This document shows positions 13,816 through 20,905 of a DNA stretch of 64,000 nucleotides, in pieces (positions within the stretch are counted from its first letter, which is position 1; each line of letters starts with the position of its first letter). Origin of the DNA: Escherichia coli. Lineage in GTDB: Bacteria; Pseudomonadota; Gammaproteobacteria; Enterobacterales; Enterobacteriaceae. Position numbers and translations under genes: made by a program. Under the pieces are notes generated by a model, which did no database searches, was not told where the DNA came from, and saw nothing but the letters and a program-made list of their open reading frames with translations. The stretch is taken from the NCBI RefSeq assembly GCF_044324785.1, contig NZ_CP172127.1, one strand, 5' to 3'.

Positions 13816-13937
13816 AAAAAAAAGCCGACTCATCAAAGTCGGCGTCGTACGAATCAATTGTGCTATGCAGTAATTCAAAAAAGGAAGTAAGACAATATGG
13901 AGCGCAACGCCCATCGCTTGACGTTGCATTCACCTGC
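13816..13937 (-). ncRNA. fnrS: FnrS small RNA (about 122 nt), FNR-activated anaerobic sRNA
   Basis: Minus-strand GCAGGTGAATGCAACGTCAAGCGATGGGCGTTGCGCTCC...GCCGACTTTGATGAGTCGGC plus U8 matches FnrS as I recall it. Confidence 0.85.
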
Positions 13938-15270: not shown

Positions 15271-16503
15271 ATGATTACGCACAACTTCAATACCCTGGAC
15301 TTACTCACCAGTCCTGTCTGGATCGTTTCGCCCTTTGAGGAACAGTTAATTTATGCCAATAGCGCGGCGCGACTGTTGATGCAAGACCTCACGTTTAGTC
15401 AGCTACGAACCGGTCCCTATTCCGTCTCCTCACAAAAAGAACTGCCAAAATACCTCTCCGATCTGCAAAACCAACACGATATTATCGAAATCCTCACCGT
15501 TCAGCGCAATGAAGAGGAAACAGCATTGAGCTGTCGGCTTGTTTTGCGAAAGCTGACAGAAGCAGAACCGGTGATTATTTTCGAAGGTATCGAAGCACCG
15601 GCAACGCTGGGTTTAAAAGCCAGTCGCTCGGCAAATTATCAGCGCAAAAAACAAGGTTTTTATGCGCGCTTTTTTCTGACTAACTCTGCACCAATGTTGT
15701 TGATTGACCCGTCACGAGATGGACAAATCGTCGATGCTAACCTCGCCGCGCTCAATTTCTATGGTTATAACCATGAAACGATGTGCCAGAAACATACCTG
15801 GGAAATAAATATGCTCGGGCGTCGCGTCATGCCTATCATGCATGAAATCTCGCATTTACCCGGTGGTCATAAGCCTTTGAATTTTATTCATAGGCTGGCG
15901 GATGGTTCGACTCGTCATGTGCAGACCTATGCCGGTCCGATTGAAATTTATGGCGACAAGCTCATGTTATGTATTGTGCATGATATTACTGAGCAAAAAC
16001 GGCTGGAGGAGCAGCTGGAACATGCTGCCCACCATGACGCGATGACAGGATTACTGAATCGGCGACAGTTTTATCACATTACCGAGCCAGGCCAAATGCA
16101 GCACCTCGCCATCGCCCAGGATTACAGCTTGTTGCTCATCGACACCGATCGTTTTAAACACATTAACGATCTCTATGGGCATTCTAAAGGTGATGAGGTG
16201 TTATGCGCCCTCGCCCGCACTCTCGAAAGTTGCGCTCGCAAAGGCGATTTGGTGTTTCGTTGGGGAGGCGAAGAGTTTGTCTTATTGCTACCAAGAACCC
16301 CACTGGATACCGCGCTTTCGCTGGCTGAAACTATCCGCGTAAGCGTGACAAAAGTGAGTATTTCGGGCTTACCACGCTTTACCGTCAGCATTGGTGTGGC
16401 GCATCACGAAGGAAATGAAAGCATCGATGAACTGTTTAAACGCGTTGATGATGCTTTGTATCGGGCGAAAAATGATGGACGCAACCGCGTGCTGGCGGCA
16501 TAA
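15271..16503 (+). CDS. dgcM: PAS-GGDEF diguanylate cyclase DgcM/YdaM (410 aa)
   Basis: ORF track 15211..16503; start set at MITHNFNTLD; GGDEF active-site motif RWGGEEF. Confidence 0.9.
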   Translation: MITHNFNTLDLLTSPVWIVSPFEEQLIYANSAARLLMQDLTFSQLRTGPYSVSSQKELPKYLSDLQNQHDIIEILTVQRNEEETALSCRLVLRKLTEAEPVIIFEGIEAPATLGLKASRSANYQRKKQGFYARFFLTNSAPMLLIDPSRDGQIVDANLAALNFYGYNHETMCQKHTWEINMLGRRVMPIMHEISHLPGGHKPLNFIHRLADGSTRHVQTYAGPIEIYGDKLMLCIVHDITEQKRLEEQLEHAAHHDAMTGLLNRRQFYHITEPGQMQHLAIAQDYSLLLIDTDRFKHINDLYGHSKGDEVLCALARTLESCARKGDLVFRWGGEEFVLLLPRTPLDTALSLAETIRVSVTKVSISGLPRFTVSIGVAHHEGNESIDELFKRVDDALYRAKNDGRNRVLAA

Positions 16504-16523
16504 GCCGCGGATGCGTCTCGAGA

Positions 16524-17087
16524 TCAACGACTGCGCTTAGCGTGGCGCTCCCAGTTTTCTTGCTTCGCCTGCGCCGTTTTACGTAGTGCGACGTAACACG
16601 CCCCGCTGCCGCCATGATGCGGTAGCGCGGTGCAATATGCCTGAACATCATCAAATTCGGTCAGCCAGCGCGCCACATAGCTGCGGACAATATTGGCATG
16701 CGATTTATCATCCCGCCCTTTACCATGAATAATCAGCACGTTACGCAAACCATCCGCCAGGGCTTGTTGAATAAAACTGAACACCATTTTGCGGCACTCT
16801 TCCACCGGCTGGCGCAAAAGATTCAGGCTCGCCTGTTGCGGATATTTACCACTGCGCAGCTTATCCAGCACCCCATGTTGCAACCCTTCCCGCCGAAACT
16901 CCAGCGGCTGACTTAGTGGGATGATGTCGAGAAATCCGGTGGTGAGGAAATTATCAAGCTGCAGCGTGTCGATACGCTGCGGCGCACGTTGGTTACGCGT
17001 TGGATGCCAGTGGACATCGGTAGCACGTTTCAGCGGCTGGACATCTTCCATGGCGTCAAGAAACAGCGATTTGTCGTCAAGGTTCAT
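16524..17087 (-). CDS. smrA: Smr-domain DNA endonuclease SmrA/YdaL (187 aa)
   Basis: 187-aa ORF; length and position match YdaL. Confidence 0.85.
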   Translation of the reverse strand: MNLDDKSLFLDAMEDVQPLKRATDVHWHPTRNQRAPQRIDTLQLDNFLTTGFLDIIPLSQPLEFRREGLQHGVLDKLRSGKYPQQASLNLLRQPVEECRKMVFSFIQQALADGLRNVLIIHGKGRDDKSHANIVRSYVARWLTEFDDVQAYCTALPHHGGSGACYVALRKTAQAKQENWERHAKRSR

Positions 17088-17281
17088 GTAACCTCCTATG
17101 CACCTTCACACGTCGTGATTCAGACGGGTTAATTGTTCATACTTACTGCATCGTTCCCTTCACAGATTGAAACAATACTCTACTTCATACCTGTGAGTAT
17201 CTGCGCAGGCGGGGCATTTTATACTAGCCTGTTAGCAGTATCGAACAGTTTAGCCCGAGTTTAATTCAGCACAGGCTCCGA

Positions 17282-18796
17282 TCAGGATGATTTATTCATA
17301 GCAGGAACCAACAAAAATGCGATAAATAACAGACCACTGATTAGCAGAAAGGTATCCGAAAATGCCATAGTTTGCGCCTCCCTCAGCATCAATTGACTTA
17401 ATAATTTGGTTGAAGCCAGTATTTCCGATGTCTGGTCACTTCCACTGCGATTAAAAAACAAAGCACTTCTGGAAATGAAGTCATTCACCGTATGGGGAAC
17501 AGAAACCATTTTTTCACCCATTCTCGAAAAATGAAAATTAGTTCGATTATTGAGAATAGAGCCACACAGGGCAATACCAATCGCGCCCCCAAGATTACGT
17601 GTTAAATTAAATACACCAGAGGCTAACTTCAGCCGTTCTTTTGGAATTCCCCCCAGCGTTAATGTTACGATGGGGGCCATCGCAAACTGCTGCGAAATCC
17701 CTCTAATTGCCTGTGGAAACAGTAACTCCTGCCATCCCCATTCGTGGGTTATCGGGGTAAAAAGATACATTGAAAACACAAATCCACCCAGCCCCGCCAT
17801 CAACAGCCATCGCAGATTTATTTTTTTACTTAACCAGAAGTAAAAGGGAACAGAAAATAACTGGAAAATACCTGTTGTGCAAACGGCAAAACCTATCTCT
17901 TCGGCATTTAATCCGCGAACCTGCCCCAAAAACACAGGTATTAAATATACAGTAGAGAATATCCCAACCCCTCCAGAAAAAGAAAAAAAACATCCCAGCG
18001 TGAAATTTTTATCCTTAAAAGCATGAAGATCCATTATCGGATTGGATATTGTAAGTGTACGCACAGCAAATAAAATAAAACTCACCAATGCCAGAACTGA
18101 TGTCAGCAAAATAGTATTATCATCCAGCCATCCCCAGCGCGCTCCTTCTTCAACGGTATATTCCAGACATCCCAGTGTCATGGCCAACAGGATAATACTC
18201 GGATAATCAGCAACTTTCAGTAAAGAGAGATCAGGTTTATCAAAATTAACCAGAAAAGGAATACTCAAAACTAAATATATGCCAGGTAATATATTGATAT
18301 AAAATAGCCATCGCCAGTCGAGATTATCAGTGATCCAGCCCCCCAGAGTTGGCCCTAGCGTCGGTGACAGTGAGGCCAGCGCACTGACTACCGCAGCAGC
18401 CAACCCCAGCTCTTTACCCTGGTAATAAATAAACGCCGTCGTGAAAACTAAAGGGATCATGGATGCGCCAGCCGCTCCCTGTAAAGCACGAAACAAAATC
18501 ATGATCTGAATATTCCATGCAAGTCCACACGCGATACTCATTAAAGTAAATATTCCCGCGGATAGAGTAAAAAGCCAACGAGTGGAAAATACCCGTGACA
18601 GCCACCCAGAGAGCGGAATAACAATAATCTCAGCAATTAAATAGCTGGTCTGAAGCCAGGCCATTTCGTCTTTACCTGCGGACAGACCACCACCTATTTC
18701 ATTTAGGGATGACGATACAATTTGAATATCAAGCTGAGCAATAAATAATCCCATACACATACTGGCGAAAGCAATATGTTTACGCATAGACATCAT
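17282..18796 (-). CDS. MFS transporter, EmrB/QacA-like multidrug-efflux type (504 aa)
   Basis: 504 aa, highly hydrophobic with many predicted TM segments; start overlaps upstream MFP stop by 4 nt (ATGA). Confidence 0.8.
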   Translation of the reverse strand: MMSMRKHIAFASMCMGLFIAQLDIQIVSSSLNEIGGGLSAGKDEMAWLQTSYLIAEIIVIPLSGWLSRVFSTRWLFTLSAGIFTLMSIACGLAWNIQIMILFRALQGAAGASMIPLVFTTAFIYYQGKELGLAAAVVSALASLSPTLGPTLGGWITDNLDWRWLFYINILPGIYLVLSIPFLVNFDKPDLSLLKVADYPSIILLAMTLGCLEYTVEEGARWGWLDDNTILLTSVLALVSFILFAVRTLTISNPIMDLHAFKDKNFTLGCFFSFSGGVGIFSTVYLIPVFLGQVRGLNAEEIGFAVCTTGIFQLFSVPFYFWLSKKINLRWLLMAGLGGFVFSMYLFTPITHEWGWQELLFPQAIRGISQQFAMAPIVTLTLGGIPKERLKLASGVFNLTRNLGGAIGIALCGSILNNRTNFHFSRMGEKMVSVPHTVNDFISRSALFFNRSGSDQTSEILASTKLLSQLMLREAQTMAFSDTFLLISGLLFIAFLLVPAMNKSS

Positions 18797-19824
18797 CTCT
18801 CATCAACACTGACGGTGACGGACAGTCCCGGGCGAAGAAGTTGCTTTAATTCCTTTGCGTCGTCAAATGCAATCCGTACCGGGACACGCTGAACAATTTT
18901 GGTGAAATTGCCAGTGGCATTTTCTATCGGAATCAAGCTGAAACTGGCTCCTGTCGCTGGGGAAAGGCTTTCAATGTGACCGTGAAACACTTCCCCTTTG
19001 AGAATATCAGCACGGATCTCAGCCTTCATTCCTGGCTTCATTCCCGCTATTTGGTTTTCTTTATAATTTGCATCAACCCACAACTCACTGACTGGTACTA
19101 GTGAAACTAACGATGTGCCGCCTTCCACCCAACTGCCTGTATGGGCGCTGCGGTTTGCGACAATGCCATCAATCGGCGCACGAACAAGGGTATATTCCAG
19201 ATCCAGTAGTGCCTGAGTCAAAGCGGCCTGAACTTCTTCGATACTTGCACGTACGTTTTCTTCCTGAGCAGATAAAACTGCCAGCCGTTGCTTCTCCACC
19301 ATGAAATCGTTCGCGGCTTTGCGCTCCTTTGCTGCGACCTGCTGGTAGTCAAACCTGGCGTTATCAATAATTTGTTGCGATATTGCCGCTGATTGTGCGA
19401 GTTTTTCATAACGTTCAGTATCTCGCAGGCGCTTTTGCTCCTCATGTTTTACTGCCTGCCATGTTTCACTGGCACTTTGAATTATCGACTGCTGCATCGC
19501 AATAGTGGCTTGAATGCTTTCGAGATTGGCTTTGCTACTTTTTATTTTTGCCTCAAGCCTGGCGACATTTGCACGATAATCCCGATCATCGAGACGCAGG
19601 ATAATATCGCCTTTTTTTACGCTCTGATTATCGCGCACCTCTATAGCAGAAATATAACCAGAAACTTTACTTGCCACCGTGGTGATATTACCACCAATGT
19701 AAGCATCATCCGTCGTCTGTATAAATCTTCCTTTGCTTACCCACCAGATAAAAAAGACAACGCCAGCCAAAATAATACCGATCGCTACCACCCCAATAAG
19801 CTGTTTTTTAGAAATTATCATCAC
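18793..19824 (-). CDS. HlyD/EmrA-family membrane fusion protein (343 aa)
   Basis: N-terminal TM anchor (VVAIGIILAGVVFFIWW), long coiled-coil region, C-terminal beta-barrel segment typical of MFPs. Confidence 0.8.
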   Translation of the reverse strand: MMIISKKQLIGVVAIGIILAGVVFFIWWVSKGRFIQTTDDAYIGGNITTVASKVSGYISAIEVRDNQSVKKGDIILRLDDRDYRANVARLEAKIKSSKANLESIQATIAMQQSIIQSASETWQAVKHEEQKRLRDTERYEKLAQSAAISQQIIDNARFDYQQVAAKERKAANDFMVEKQRLAVLSAQEENVRASIEEVQAALTQALLDLEYTLVRAPIDGIVANRSAHTGSWVEGGTSLVSLVPVSELWVDANYKENQIAGMKPGMKAEIRADILKGEVFHGHIESLSPATGASFSLIPIENATGNFTKIVQRVPVRIAFDDAKELKQLLRPGLSVTVSVDER

Positions 19825-19917
19825 TCTTTACACCGTATATATCCGGAAACTTGCATTCGTCATATTTAAAATTTAACATGGCTTATTTGATGATTTCTGA
19901 CAAAATACCTACTGTAA

Positions 19918-20733
19918 ATGACAATCACACTGCAACCCAAAGCATCACCAGGGCATCACATTATCGGACTGGATTCGGAACATCTGAATGGAGGCACAGT
20001 TCCCTGGCATAAACATCTCTATGCCCAGTTGCTTTACCCGGCTGAAGGAGTCGTTCGTGTATGGGCTGGAGAAAGCGTCTGGCTAGTCCATGCCAGCAGC
20101 GCGCTTTGGCTGCCCCCACAAATGCCGCATAAGTTTGTTGCGACAGGCAACGTACTTTTAAAAACCGTACTGGTTTCAGAAGCGGAAAGTGAAACGCTGG
20201 GAAAAGTTTGCTTCATGACGGGTATTTCACCCCTGTTAAGAGAATTACTAATTGCAATTAACCAACTTCCACCGTCGCAAAGTACCACAGATAAACAACA
20301 GTTACGTTTTTCAGCCCTCGAGACACTGATACTTCAGGAAATAAAAATGGGGGTGAAAATGTCACTTGAACTCCCTTGGCCAAATGATGAGCGGCTACAG
20401 CAGCTTTGTGAGAATTTGCTAAACAACCAAGGGTATCTACCAACACTGGATAATCTAGCGGATAAAATTAACGTCAGTAGCCGTACACTCATGCGCTTAT
20501 TTGTTAAAGAGACGGGATTAACATTTCGCCACTGGGTTCAGCAAATGCACGTTATTTCTGCAGTGACGCTTCTTGATGATGGATATTCGTTGACCAAAAT
20601 TGCCCATCGTCTGGGCTATGCCTCAGCTGAATCGTTCGGCAATATGTTTAAGCGTCGAACGGGCTACTCGCCCGGTAAATTTACTCGTCGATTAACGATG
20701 CATGATTATGCAATCACAAGACAAATGATTTAA
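19918..20733 (+). CDS. AraC/XylS-family transcriptional regulator with N-terminal cupin-like domain (271 aa)
   Basis: C-terminal double HTH (KIAHRLGYASAESFGNMFKRRTGYSPGKF); divergent from the MFP-MFS operon. Confidence 0.8.
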   Translation: MTITLQPKASPGHHIIGLDSEHLNGGTVPWHKHLYAQLLYPAEGVVRVWAGESVWLVHASSALWLPPQMPHKFVATGNVLLKTVLVSEAESETLGKVCFMTGISPLLRELLIAINQLPPSQSTTDKQQLRFSALETLILQEIKMGVKMSLELPWPNDERLQQLCENLLNNQGYLPTLDNLADKINVSSRTLMRLFVKETGLTFRHWVQQMHVISAVTLLDDGYSLTKIAHRLGYASAESFGNMFKRRTGYSPGKFTRRLTMHDYAITRQMI

Positions 20734-20803
20734 CTTATATTTTCGTGAAATCTGTCACTGAAGAAAATTGGCAACGGATGGGTAAAACCGTTATAACACT
20801 GTC

Positions 20804-20897
20804 ACCGGTCACCAGGACCCCAGGCCGGATTTAAGACGAGGATGCACTGCTGTGTGTACTGTAGAGTCTGGCGGATGTCGACAGACTCTATTTTTTT
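20804..20897 (+). ncRNA. mcaS: McaS (IsrA) small RNA
   Basis: ACCGGTCACCAGGACCCCAGGCCGGATTTAAGACGAGGATGCACTGCTGTGTGTACTGTAGAGTCTGGCGGATGTCGACAGACTCTATTTTTTT; GGA motifs plus terminal hairpin and U-run; -35/-10 candidates ttggca/tataac upstream. Confidence 0.8.
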
Positions 20898-20905
20898 ATG
20901 CAGTT

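What the first reader, a model, noticed from the sequence alone, without database searches (positions are those of the whole stretch)
17282..20733. Three-gene accessory efflux module (AraC regulator / HlyD-type MFP / MFS pump) between smrA and McaS
Divergent AraC-cupin regulator (19918-20733) and a translationally coupled MFP-MFS operon (18793-19824, 17282-18796) sit exactly where, in the K-12 arrangement I recall, smrA is directly followed by mcaS and abgR. The block looks AT-richer than its core neighbours by eye, and the McaS promoter abuts the AraC stop codon. It has EmrAB-like architecture but a short 343-aa MFP and an AraC rather than MarR/TetR regulator, so substrate and inducer are unknown. 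Proximity to the abg (aminobenzoyl-glutamate) genes suggests an aromatic acid or xenobiotic as a guess.
Basis: partly seen in the sequence, partly recalled or inferred. Interest (0 to 1): 0.6.

Follow-up and report, generated by a model that had tools for sequence, protein, structure and literature searches.

The report
Accessory EmrAB-like efflux gene cassette
About a quarter of E. coli strains carry this real but fairly ordinary three-gene island, a NimR-like sensor-regulator plus a two-part EmrAB-type export pump, inserted between smrA and the McaS small-RNA gene; what it exports is unknown and many strains have broken it.

Summary
Three intact ORFs sit at the stated coordinates: a 14-TMS DHA2 MFS transporter, a 4-nt-overlapping EmrA-type adaptor, and a divergent cupin-AraC regulator. 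The block is AT-rich (44% GC against ~50% in the flanks).

It is absent from K-12 and present in 1457 of 5426 complete E. coli genomes. It is an insertion, not a K-12 deletion. K-12's smrA-upstream DNA matches Salmonella and Citrobacter, and that DNA is replaced here by 3.6 kb. The right edge falls at the regulator's native stop codon, so the ORF runs 11 codons into backbone DNA.

The same three-gene cassette sits in unrelated chromosomal sites in Kluyvera/Citrobacter-type and Pluralibacter genomes. The pump proteins are only 28% and 31% identical to EmrB and EmrA. The regulator is 32% identical to NimR and has an invariant HxHxxxQ…H cupin site.

Most likely it is a ligand-induced, proton-driven pump that uses TolC. 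The substrate is unknown, and nothing supports a link to abg.

The module is younger than its flanks, often inactivated, and perfectly linked to a distinct McaS allele. RefSeq wrongly flagged the intact transporter ORF "frameshifted" in the carriers checked. Verdict: a new, uncharacterised member of a known kind; modest interest.

The parts
17098..20697 (.). Inserted segment (3600 bp) that is absent from K-12; replaces 111 bp of ancestral smrA-upstream DNA
   Evidence: K-12 homology ends at 17097 and resumes at 20698. The K-12 111-bp stretch is homologous to Salmonella and C. rodentium smrA-upstream DNA. GC 0.441. ATGCA is present at 17098-17102 and 20698-20702.
17282..18796 (-). DHA2-family 14-TMS MFS transporter, 504 aa, intact
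   Evidence: TIGR00711 406 bits, above cutoff 230; EmrB equivalog 220, far below 925. MFS_1 1e-40. Best solved match EmrB 8zal, 6e-56. 28% identical to K-12 EmrB. D23 in TM1, FRALQG and GPTLGG motifs.
18793..19821 (-). EmrA-type periplasmic adaptor (MFP), 342 aa from ATG 19821 (343 from GTG 19824); stop overlaps the MFS start by 4 nt
   Evidence: EmrA 8zar 2e-43, colinear with EmrA 20-346. 31% identical to K-12 EmrA. One N-terminal TM helix, residues 8-26.
19825..19917 (.). Divergent control region between the MFP and AraC genes; candidate mfp promoter TTTACA-17-AATCAT (19918..19890, - strand)
   Evidence: Pattern scan (not enriched over shuffles). The position of both hexamers and an adjacent block are conserved in the Kluyvera-type and Pluralibacter cassettes.
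19918..20733 (+). Cupin-AraC (NimR-like) regulator, 271 aa; the last 36 nt (20698-20733, MHDYAITRQMI*) are backbone DNA shared with K-12
   Evidence: Homologues in other genera are 260-262 aa and stop 5 residues after GYSPxK[FY]. Cassette nucleotide homology ends at 20695. AF2 pLDDT is below 50 for residues 259-271. 32% identical to NimR. H31, H33, Q37 and H71 are invariant.
17098..17281 (-). 184-bp tail downstream of the MFS stop, of unknown origin; now forms the whole smrA upstream region; candidate promoter TCGATA-17-TAAAAT (17244..17216); no terminator predicted on the - strand
   Evidence: No homology to K-12 or to the cassettes of other genera. Scan.
16524..17087 (-). smrA, core gene directly downstream of and co-oriented with the MFS; lost its ancestral upstream DNA to the insertion
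   Evidence: 100% identical to K-12 over 16400-17097.
20734..20899 (+). mcaS promoter and McaS sRNA (20804-20899), alternative allele linked to the module
   Evidence: Rfam RF00115, 113 bits. The allele differs from K-12 in the promoter spacer and the 5' hairpin loop, with a compensatory stem change. Alternative allele in 1459 genomes, K-12 allele in 3926.

Best explanation
This is a horizontally acquired, self-contained efflux cassette. The 271-aa regulator has a cupin sensor domain and an AraC-type DNA-binding domain and is related to NimR. It is inferred to bind a small ligand, possibly through a metal-type HxHxxxQ…H site. It would then activate the divergent promoter of a translationally coupled operon. 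That operon encodes an EmrA-type adaptor anchored in the inner membrane and a 14-helix DHA2 proton antiporter. Together with the chromosomal outer-membrane channel TolC they are inferred to form an EmrAB-TolC-like tripartite pump. The pump would expel a still unknown, probably hydrophobic or amphipathic, compound. The cassette entered an Escherichia lineage by illegitimate insertion between smrA and mcaS. It then spread between lineages by homologous recombination, together with a linked McaS allele. It is conditionally dispensable, and many strains have inactivated it. Shown: gene content, family membership, insertion polarity, junctions, distribution, linkage and decay. Inferred: activation by a ligand, use of TolC, proton coupling and substrate class.
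For: Families and anatomy. Conserved three-gene unit in at least three unrelated chromosomal contexts in other genera (MFS 82% and 72% identical). More distant Paraburkholderia relatives are MFP-MFS-OMF operons with a NodT-family channel (280 bits, cutoff 210), which shows the pump family is tripartite. Like emrAB, the enterobacterial cassettes carry no OMF gene. Regulator: 32% identical to NimR (E 4e-34). NimR is a single-target AraC-family factor that binds only the nimR/nimT spacer and is described as activator of the MFS exporter NimT (PMC5934670, PMC7355843). Distant subfamily members also sit divergently from exporters. H31/H33/Q37/H71 are invariant down to 27% identity. Insertion polarity. 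Younger than the flanks: dS 0.009-0.038 against 0.075-0.083 (window vs B2), and 0.08-0.18 against 0.34-0.98 (window vs E69). Foreign composition. Purifying selection still acts (dN/dS 0-0.4).
Against: No experiment on this cassette was found in five targeted literature searches. No substrate, inducer or TolC dependence is shown. The MFP scores below the curated EmrA/EmrK subfamily cutoff (267 vs 390.8) and the MFS is far below the EmrB equivalog cutoff, so the EmrAB analogy rests on architecture, not orthology. Promoter-like sites are not enriched over shuffles, and no repeated operator was found. Whether the regulator activates or represses is extrapolated from NimR at 32% identity. Relaxed constraint on the pump genes and many independent knock-outs show that the function is often unneeded.
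Confidence: 0.72

Rival explanations
1. The module is ancestral to E. coli and the K-12-type empty site arose by deletion. The 36 nt of AraC 3' sequence seen in K-12 would then be a deletion scar.
For: K-12 intergenic DNA aligns with the last 36 nt of the AraC ORF. A divergent Escherichia lineage (E69) has the module at the same site.
Against: K-12's 111 bp upstream of smrA is homologous to Salmonella and Citrobacter smrA-upstream DNA, and all module haplotypes lack it. Outgroups have no module at this locus. The 36 nt lie beyond the native stop of the 260-262-aa homologues and beyond the end of cassette nucleotide homology. Module dS is several-fold lower than flank dS. GC3 is about 10-15 points below the flanks.
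Confidence: 0.04
2. In E. coli the pump is an evolutionary relic with no current role. The ORFs that remain intact simply have not yet been hit, and only the regulator (or nothing) still matters.
For: There are many independent lesions: the Nissle-type internal deletion; a ~200-bp deletion in SCU-204; W353* in AR_0017; a split MFS in E69; Shigella C-terminal frameshifts and truncated forms; an IS1 insertion (H8); and G148E in the motif C GP dipeptide of ST95-type alleles. dN/dS of MFS and MFP is 3-10 times that of the flanks.
Against: Six of seven sampled full-length carriers, plus the window, have all three ORFs intact. dN/dS stays well below 1 (0.15-0.43 for MFS). 1316 of 1457 carriers keep at least 80% of the module. 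The cassette is conserved as a unit across genera.
Confidence: 0.2
3. The MFP-MFS pair does not use TolC. It either works only across the inner membrane or recruits another outer-membrane factor (for example an MdtP/MdtQ-type channel).
For: No OMF gene is in the cassette. The MFP is below the EmrA/EmrK subfamily cutoff and also matches MdtN (163 bits) and AaeA (103 bits) models. Relatives in Paraburkholderia use a dedicated NodT-type OMF.
Against: The MFP is colinear with EmrA through the whole periplasmic part, including the hairpin region, and EmrA is solved in complex with EmrB (8zal/8zar). From general knowledge, E. coli MFPs encoded without their own OMF use TolC.
Confidence: 0.12
4. The regulator's main role is not, or not only, pump control. 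It is kept for other targets, or because its transcription reads into mcaS. That would explain why it survives when the pump is deleted.
For: AraC is intact in Nissle 1917 although the pump is deleted. It shows 0-1 amino-acid changes across sampled E. coli against 3-10 in the MFS. No terminator is predicted between the AraC stop and mcaS, and both are on the + strand.
Against: Truncated AraC alleles are common (166-aa form on 363 contigs). NimR, the nearest characterised relative, has a single target. Counts of substitutions are small.
Confidence: 0.15

Closest known systems
EmrAB-TolC of E. coli K-12 (emrRAB; PDB 8zal/8zar)
   Same: Adaptor gene followed by a 14-TMS DHA2 transporter gene, with no OMF gene. 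The adaptor has one N-terminal TM helix and is colinear with EmrA 20-346. The transporter aligns over 493 residues and keeps motif B and motif C.
   Different: Only 31% (adaptor) and 28% (transporter) identical. Scores are below the EmrA/EmrK subfamily and EmrB equivalog cutoffs. It lacks EmrA's ~14 N-terminal and ~44 C-terminal residues. Its genes overlap by 4 nt, whereas emrA and emrB are separated by 16 nt. It is controlled by a divergent cupin-AraC instead of the co-transcribed MarR-type EmrR. It is accessory rather than core.
NimR-NimT (YeaM-YeaN) of E. coli K-12
   Same: The regulator is 32% identical over 234 residues, including the HxHxxxQ…H cupin signature. The size is similar (271 vs 272-273 aa). 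It is divergently transcribed from an MFS exporter gene. NimR is a single-target factor acting on that spacer.
   Different: NimT is a 12-TMS MFS of ~393 aa without an adaptor, whereas here the target is a two-gene adaptor + 14-TMS pump. C164, invariant in this subfamily sample, is not conserved in NimR. The inducer of either regulator was not established by anything I read.
MdtNOP and AaeAB adaptors (E. coli K-12)
   Same: The adaptor has a similar length to MdtN and matches both family models (163 and 103 bits).
   Different: Both scores are far below their cutoffs (376 and 400). Those adaptors partner with non-MFS inner-membrane proteins (established knowledge). MdtNOP brings its own OMF.
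Orthologous cassettes in Kluyvera, Citrobacter, Salmonella salamae, Hafnia, Pluralibacter and others (unnamed)
   Same: Identical three-gene layout. MFS 82% or 72%, AraC 80%, MFP 68% identical; 71% nucleotide identity across exactly 17297-20695.
   Different: They sit at other chromosomal sites. Their regulator is 260-262 aa without the 11-residue backbone-encoded tail. Their GC follows the host (0.48 to 0.655). None is characterised either.

Membership tests
DHA2 (14-TMS drug:H+ antiporter-2) family of the MFS | Full-length match to the curated subfamily model TIGR00711 above its cutoff | tested here: met
   406 bits against cutoff 230.2; residues 9-496 on profile positions 3-480 of 485.
DHA2 (14-TMS drug:H+ antiporter-2) family of the MFS | 14 transmembrane segments, with antiporter motif C in TM5, motif B Arg in TM4 and an acidic residue in TM1 | tested here: met
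   Hydropathy peaks are consistent with 14 TMS, although TM12 and TM13 are weak by Kyte-Doolittle. FRALQG at 101-106, GPTLGG at 148-153, D23. Colinear with EmrB.
EmrB (orthologue of the K-12 protein) | Score above the curated EmrB model cutoff | tested here: not met
   NF000391: 220 bits against cutoff 925. 28% identity.
EmrA/EmrK adaptor subfamily | Score above the TIGR00998 cutoff | tested here: not met
   267 bits against cutoff 390.8; EmrA equivalog 207 against 563. The protein is still colinear with EmrA 20-346.
Membrane fusion protein (HlyD) superfamily | Lipoyl/barrel-sandwich, alpha-hairpin and beta-barrel domains, plus an N-terminal membrane anchor | tested here: met
   Pfam HlyD_D23 4e-16, HlyD_3 9e-13, Biotin_lipoyl_2 2e-10. 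TM helix 8-26.
Tripartite MFS pump (EmrAB-TolC type) | Functional and physical coupling to an outer-membrane factor | not testable with these tools
   No OMF gene in the cassette. Paraburkholderia relatives carry an adjacent NodT-family OMF. Use of TolC is inferred.
AraC/XylS transcription factors | C-terminal double helix-turn-helix domain plus an N-terminal cupin-type AraC ligand-binding domain | tested here: met
   HTH_18 1.4e-21; AraC_binding 5e-08; Cupin_2 1e-06. The AF2 model shows a beta-barrel followed by a helical domain, pLDDT 88.5. Fold matches to ToxT, Rns, AraC and RhaR.
NimR-like subfamily of AraC regulators | Full-length similarity to NimR, with the conserved cupin signature and a divergent exporter gene | tested here: inconclusive
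   32% identity, E 4e-34 pairwise. HxHxxxQ…H is shared. The divergent exporter layout is shared. No curated family model exists to set a boundary, and no NCBIfam cutoff was reached.
Horizontally acquired genomic islet | Absent from outgroups and most conspecifics, atypical composition, defined junctions | tested here: met
Horizontally acquired genomic islet | Mobility genes or target-site duplication of a transposon or integrase | tested here: not met
   No integrase, transposase or tRNA at the site. There is only a 5-bp ATGCA microhomology at the junctions and a 111-bp target deletion.

The most novel reading that the evidence does not exclude
The insertion did more than add a pump: it rewired two core neighbours. 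It removed the ancestral upstream DNA of the DNA endonuclease gene smrA, which now lies terminator-less downstream of the efflux operon on the same strand. It is also in perfect linkage with a distinct McaS allele (different promoter spacer and 5' hairpin loop) that lies terminator-less downstream of the regulator gene. In about 27% of E. coli, xenobiotic sensing by the NimR-like regulator could therefore be coupled to SmrA and to the McaS/CsrA biofilm-motility switch. The regulator may be retained for this reason even where the pump is dead, as in Nissle 1917.
Probability: 0.12. Interest if true: 0.55.

Novelty: new member of a known kind. Interest (0 to 1): 0.3.

Why it matters
If the pump is active, it is an uncharacterised efflux system in roughly a quarter of sequenced E. 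coli, including the major extraintestinal lineages. It could contribute to tolerance of some drug, bile component, plant compound or microbial metabolite.

On the practical side, RefSeq labels the transporter a frameshifted pseudogene in every carrier I checked, although most copies are intact. Protein-based pan-genome and resistome surveys will therefore tend to miss it.

The locus also gives a clean two-haplotype system (empty + K-12 McaS versus module + alternative McaS). This could be used to study how an insertion reshapes the expression of neighbouring core genes and an sRNA.

The invariant HxHxxxQ…H site defines a NimR-like regulator subfamily whose signal is not known.

Tried and rejected
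1. Deletion in K-12 as the origin of the polymorphism. I first favoured this because K-12 aligns with the AraC 3' end. I rejected it after the outgroup alignment and the comparison of homologue C-termini.

2. Searching for a donor. AraC hits at 89-92% identity turned out to be E. coli alleles with internal deletions. The nearest true relatives stay at about 80%. The genome scan returned only 7 loci because it relies on exact peptide words, so the absence of E. albertii and E. fergusonii from it is not informative.

3. Literature. Searches by flanking gene names, protein accessions, guessed CFT073 locus tags and topic words found nothing on this cassette.

4. Operator search. No convincing direct or inverted repeat common to the cassettes was found in the 93-bp spacer. 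One 17-nt imperfect inverted repeat overlaps the MFP start codon and is explained by coding conservation.

5. Ligand inference from structure. Foldseek gave only generic AraC-family and cupin matches.

6. PGAP 'frameshifted' flags as evidence of decay. I rejected this because SF-088 and six of seven further sampled copies are intact 504-codon ORFs, colinear with the 505-aa homologues. The flag probably comes from a truncated Shigella reference protein; that cause is an inference.

7. The abg link to substrate: rejected.

8. The McaS mechanism paper did not give the McaS-side pairing nucleotides, so the functional effect of the allele remains open.
Full report
1. OBSERVATION

The three ORFs are exactly as described.
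- MFS: 17282-18796(-), 504 aa.
- Adaptor (MFP): 18793-19824(-). A GTG start gives 343 aa. The ATG at 19821 gives 342 aa and is the start PGAP uses in other strains.
- AraC-type regulator: 19918-20733(+), 271 aa.

The adaptor stop and the MFS start overlap by 4 nt. Neighbours are zntB, dgcM and smrA (16524-17087, -) on the left. On the right are McaS (Rfam RF00115, 20804-20899, +, 113 bits), abgR, abgA and abgB. Family matches are strong:
- DHA2 subfamily model TIGR00711 at 406 bits, cutoff 230.
- Pfam MFS_1 1e-40.
- HlyD_D23, HlyD_3 and Biotin_lipoyl_2 for the adaptor.
- HTH_18 1e-21 with AraC_binding/Cupin_2 for the regulator.

The block is compositionally distinct. Its GC is 0.441 and GC3 is 0.39-0.43. 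The flanks are at 0.495-0.514 with GC3 of 0.49-0.58.

2. DISTRIBUTION

K-12 (DH10B) has smrA-mcaS-abgR with nothing between them. Module-only DNA (17098-20697) is found in 1457 of 5426 complete E. coli genomes, and at least 80% of it is present in 1316. It is a single copy, almost always chromosomal, and at least 99% identical in 1403 genomes. The window arrangement (module next to intact abgR) occurs in 313 genomes. The other ~1000 carriers, including IHE3034, SF-088 and Nissle 1917, have lost the abg operon and keep only an abgR stub next to ogt. This collection is rich in clinical isolates, so these fractions are not population frequencies.

3. INSERTION OR DELETION

Homology to K-12 stops at 17097, which is 10 nt upstream of the smrA ATG. 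It resumes at 20698, which is 36 nt inside the AraC ORF. At first this looked like a deletion scar in K-12. Three results reverse that reading.

(a) The 111 bp that K-12 has in place of the module is clearly homologous to the smrA-upstream DNA of Salmonella and Citrobacter rodentium. The window, a B2 strain and the divergent lineage E69 all lack it. In those two outgroups ogt lies directly beside smrA, with neither abg nor the module present.

(b) The regulator's homologues in other genera are 260-262 aa and stop five residues after the conserved GYSPxK[FY]. At that point the window ORF continues for 11 codons (MHDYAITRQMI*), and these are encoded by the DNA shared with K-12. Nucleotide homology to the Kluyvera-type cassette runs from 17297 to 20695, two bases short of the junction. 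The AlphaFold model is confident (pLDDT 88.5) except for residues 259-271.

(c) The module is younger than its surroundings. Between the window and a B2 strain, dS is 0.009-0.038 in the three genes and 0.075-0.083 in smrA, dgcM and zntB. Between the window and E69, dS is 0.08 (AraC) and 0.18 (MFP), against 0.34 (smrA) and 0.98 (dgcM).

So 3.6 kb was inserted with loss of 111 bp of target DNA. It later moved between Escherichia lineages by recombination. The only junction signature is a 5-bp ATGCA at both ends, and there are no mobility genes. The 184 bp between the left junction and the MFS stop (17098-17281) matches nothing I hold.

4. THE CASSETTE ELSEWHERE

The nearest non-Escherichia MFS relatives are 82% identical. 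They are scattered over Kluyvera, Citrobacter, Hafnia, Salmonella salamae, Yokenella, Pluralibacter, Providencia and others, and none has a specific name. The contigs I fetched for the 82% group carry no organism names, but they have the same divergent cupin-AraC / adaptor / MFS unit in two different chromosomal neighbourhoods. The Pluralibacter cassette (72%) shows a third. In the 82% group the AraC is 80% and the adaptor 68% identical to the window proteins.

Relatives at 62% identity form a different operon with an HxlR-type regulator and a ketoacyl synthase, and sometimes the adaptor and MFS are fused into one 867-aa protein. Paraburkholderia relatives (MFS 52%, adaptor 41%) are adaptor-MFS-OMF operons with a NodT-family channel. 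The AraC-linked cassette is therefore its own orthologous group within a tripartite pump family.

5. HOW IT MOST LIKELY WORKS

The best solved matches are the E. coli EmrA and EmrB chains of entries 8zar and 8zal (2e-43 and 6e-56). Identities to the K-12 proteins are 31% and 28%.

The adaptor has one N-terminal TM helix and aligns without large gaps to EmrA 20-346. It is 'short' only because it lacks EmrA's terminal extensions. The MFS has the DHA2 pattern: D23 in TM1, FRALQG (motif B) and GPTLGG (core of motif C). No OMF gene is present, as in emrRAB. The inference is a proton-driven EmrAB-type pump that docks onto TolC.

The regulator is 32% identical to K-12 NimR over 234 residues (E 4e-34). 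NimR is an AraC-family factor with a single SELEX target, the nimR/nimT spacer. It is described as the activator of the MFS exporter NimT (PMC5934670, PMC7355843).

In 16 homologues down to 27% identity, H31, H33, Q37 and H71 are invariant. They fit the two cupin motifs, G(X)5HXH(X)3[E/Q](X)6G and PxxxxH. This suggests a conserved, possibly metal-assisted, ligand site. Distant members also sit divergently from exporters: an MFS in Acinetobacter and a TauE-type protein in Brevibacterium. One sits beside a LeuA-like gene instead. Foldseek gives only generic AraC and cupin neighbours, so the ligand is open.

In the 93-bp spacer, a promoter-like TTTACA-17-AATCAT element abuts the AraC start codon, and its position is conserved in the other cassettes. 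Such hits are not enriched over shuffles, and no shared operator repeat was found. Activation by a ligand is therefore an inference from NimR.

6. STATE OF THE MODULE IN E. COLI

The window copy is intact. PGAP labels the MFS gene 'frameshifted' in every RefSeq carrier I opened, always with the same 1456-nt coordinates. Yet SF-088 and six of seven further full-length copies are uninterrupted 504-codon ORFs, colinear to the end with the 505-aa homologues. The flag is therefore a systematic annotation artefact. It probably comes from a truncated Shigella reference protein; that cause is an inference.

Real lesions are nevertheless frequent and independent:
- an internal deletion fusing adaptor and MFS stubs in Nissle 1917 and the other 49%-coverage hits;
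- a ~200-bp deletion in SCU-204;
- W353* in AR_0017;
- a split MFS in E69;
- C-terminal frameshifts in Shigella flexneri;
- an IS1 insertion (H8);
- an MFS truncated after residue 329, the representative of a large cluster, and a 166-aa AraC on 363 contigs;
- G148E in the motif C GP dipeptide of ST95-type alleles.

dN/dS is 0.15-0.43 for the MFS, 0.1-0.9 for the adaptor (few sites), 0-0.15 for AraC and 0-0.07 for the flanks. The pump is thus under relaxed but real constraint. The regulator is the best-conserved part and survives in Nissle 1917 without the pump.

7. EFFECTS ON NEIGHBOURS (inference)

smrA is on the same strand as the MFS and directly downstream of it. Its ancestral upstream DNA is gone, and no terminator is predicted in the 194-bp gap. 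One promoter-like site lies in the foreign tail.

mcaS is on the same strand as AraC and 70 nt downstream of it, again with no predicted terminator. By eye, the mcaS promoter (TTGGCA-17-TATAAC, 20768-20796) and a CRP-like site (20744-20759) are intact.

All module haplotypes carry a different McaS allele. The promoter spacer differs. The 12-nt loop of the 5' hairpin is ACCAGGACCCCA where K-12 has CAGAGGAGACAA. The stem is kept through a G-U to C-G double change, and the loop keeps a GGA. The alternative allele is in 1459 genomes and the K-12 allele in 3926. These counts match the carrier and non-carrier counts. From memory, not checked here, the loop GGA is one of the CsrA-binding motifs of McaS.

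8. COMPARISON AND VERDICT

The module works like EmrAB-TolC under a NimR-like regulator. It is not an orthologue of EmrAB, EmrKY, MdtN or AaeA, because all curated cutoffs are missed. I found no publication on it.

It is a new, uncharacterised member of a known kind. The abg-based substrate guess is unsupported, and the short adaptor is not a meaningful difference. Interest is modest. The most useful by-products are the insertion polarity, the perfect linkage to a second McaS allele, the loss of smrA's native upstream region, and the RefSeq pseudogene artefact.

Noticed in passing
window 20734-20899 (McaS 20804-20899): E. coli has two McaS alleles. The module haplotype carries a different promoter spacer and a different 12-nt loop in the 5' hairpin (ACCAGGACCCCA vs CAGAGGAGACAA). 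The stem has a compensatory change and the loop GGA is retained. The alternative allele is in 1459 genomes and the K-12 allele in 3926, which matches module presence and absence.
   Followed up: partly
window 17282-18796; loci L002, L031-L037: RefSeq/PGAP marks this MFS gene 'frameshifted' in every carrier examined (same 1456-nt span), although SF-088 and 6 of 7 further sampled copies are intact 504-codon ORFs. It is a systematic artefact that removes the protein from RefSeq protein sets.
   Followed up: yes
window 17088-17281 vs L001 3699-3809: Module carriers have lost the smrA-upstream DNA that is conserved between K-12, Salmonella and Citrobacter. smrA now follows the MFS gene on the same strand with no predicted terminator between them.
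   Followed up: partly
L002 10508-10855; L030 5508-5836: B2-type strains (SF-088, IHE3034, Nissle 1917) and the divergent lineage E69 lack abgABT and keep only a degraded abgR stub between mcaS and ogt. In Salmonella and C. rodentium ogt abuts smrA directly, so the ogt-smrA gap is a hotspot for gain and loss.
   Followed up: partly
L015 (CP089930.1, 'E. coli' E69): This genome is labelled E. coli, but its flanking genes are highly diverged from the window (dgcM dS 0.98, smrA dS 0.34). It still carries the module at 95-99% identity at the same junctions, with a split MFS. It looks like a cryptic Escherichia lineage that exchanged the module with E. coli.
   Followed up: partly
L023, L024, L025: The 62%-identical paralogous pumps (L023 from the cluster whose representative P0139 is named Raoultella ornithinolytica; L025 unnamed) form an operon of HxlR-type regulator, adaptor, MFS and ketoacyl-ACP-synthase-like gene. 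In L025 the adaptor and MFS are fused into one 867-aa protein.
   Followed up: no
L002 MFS residue 148; protein P0129: ST95-type alleles carry G148E in the GP dipeptide of antiporter motif C. One widespread form (the representative of a 1555-member cluster) also ends after residue 329. Both are probably loss-of-function changes.
   Followed up: no
window 17098-17102 and 20698-20702: The pentamer ATGCA occurs at the first bases of the insert and at the first bases of the resumed backbone. This may be microhomology used in the illegitimate insertion, or it may be chance.
   Followed up: no
window 13820-13937 (-): FnrS sRNA (Rfam RF01796, 134.8 bits) lies between zntB and the upstream region, as expected for this chromosomal neighbourhood.
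   Followed up: no
L004 1-733 and 718-2388; L027 3005-5813: A paralogous cupin-AraC (36% identical to the window regulator) sits beside a LeuA/HMGL-like gene in the unnamed 82%-cassette contigs (L004 and relatives). The Rhizobium member of the subfamily (L027) is likewise divergent from a LeuA/HMGL-like gene. So one branch of this regulator subfamily is linked to metabolism rather than export.
   Followed up: no
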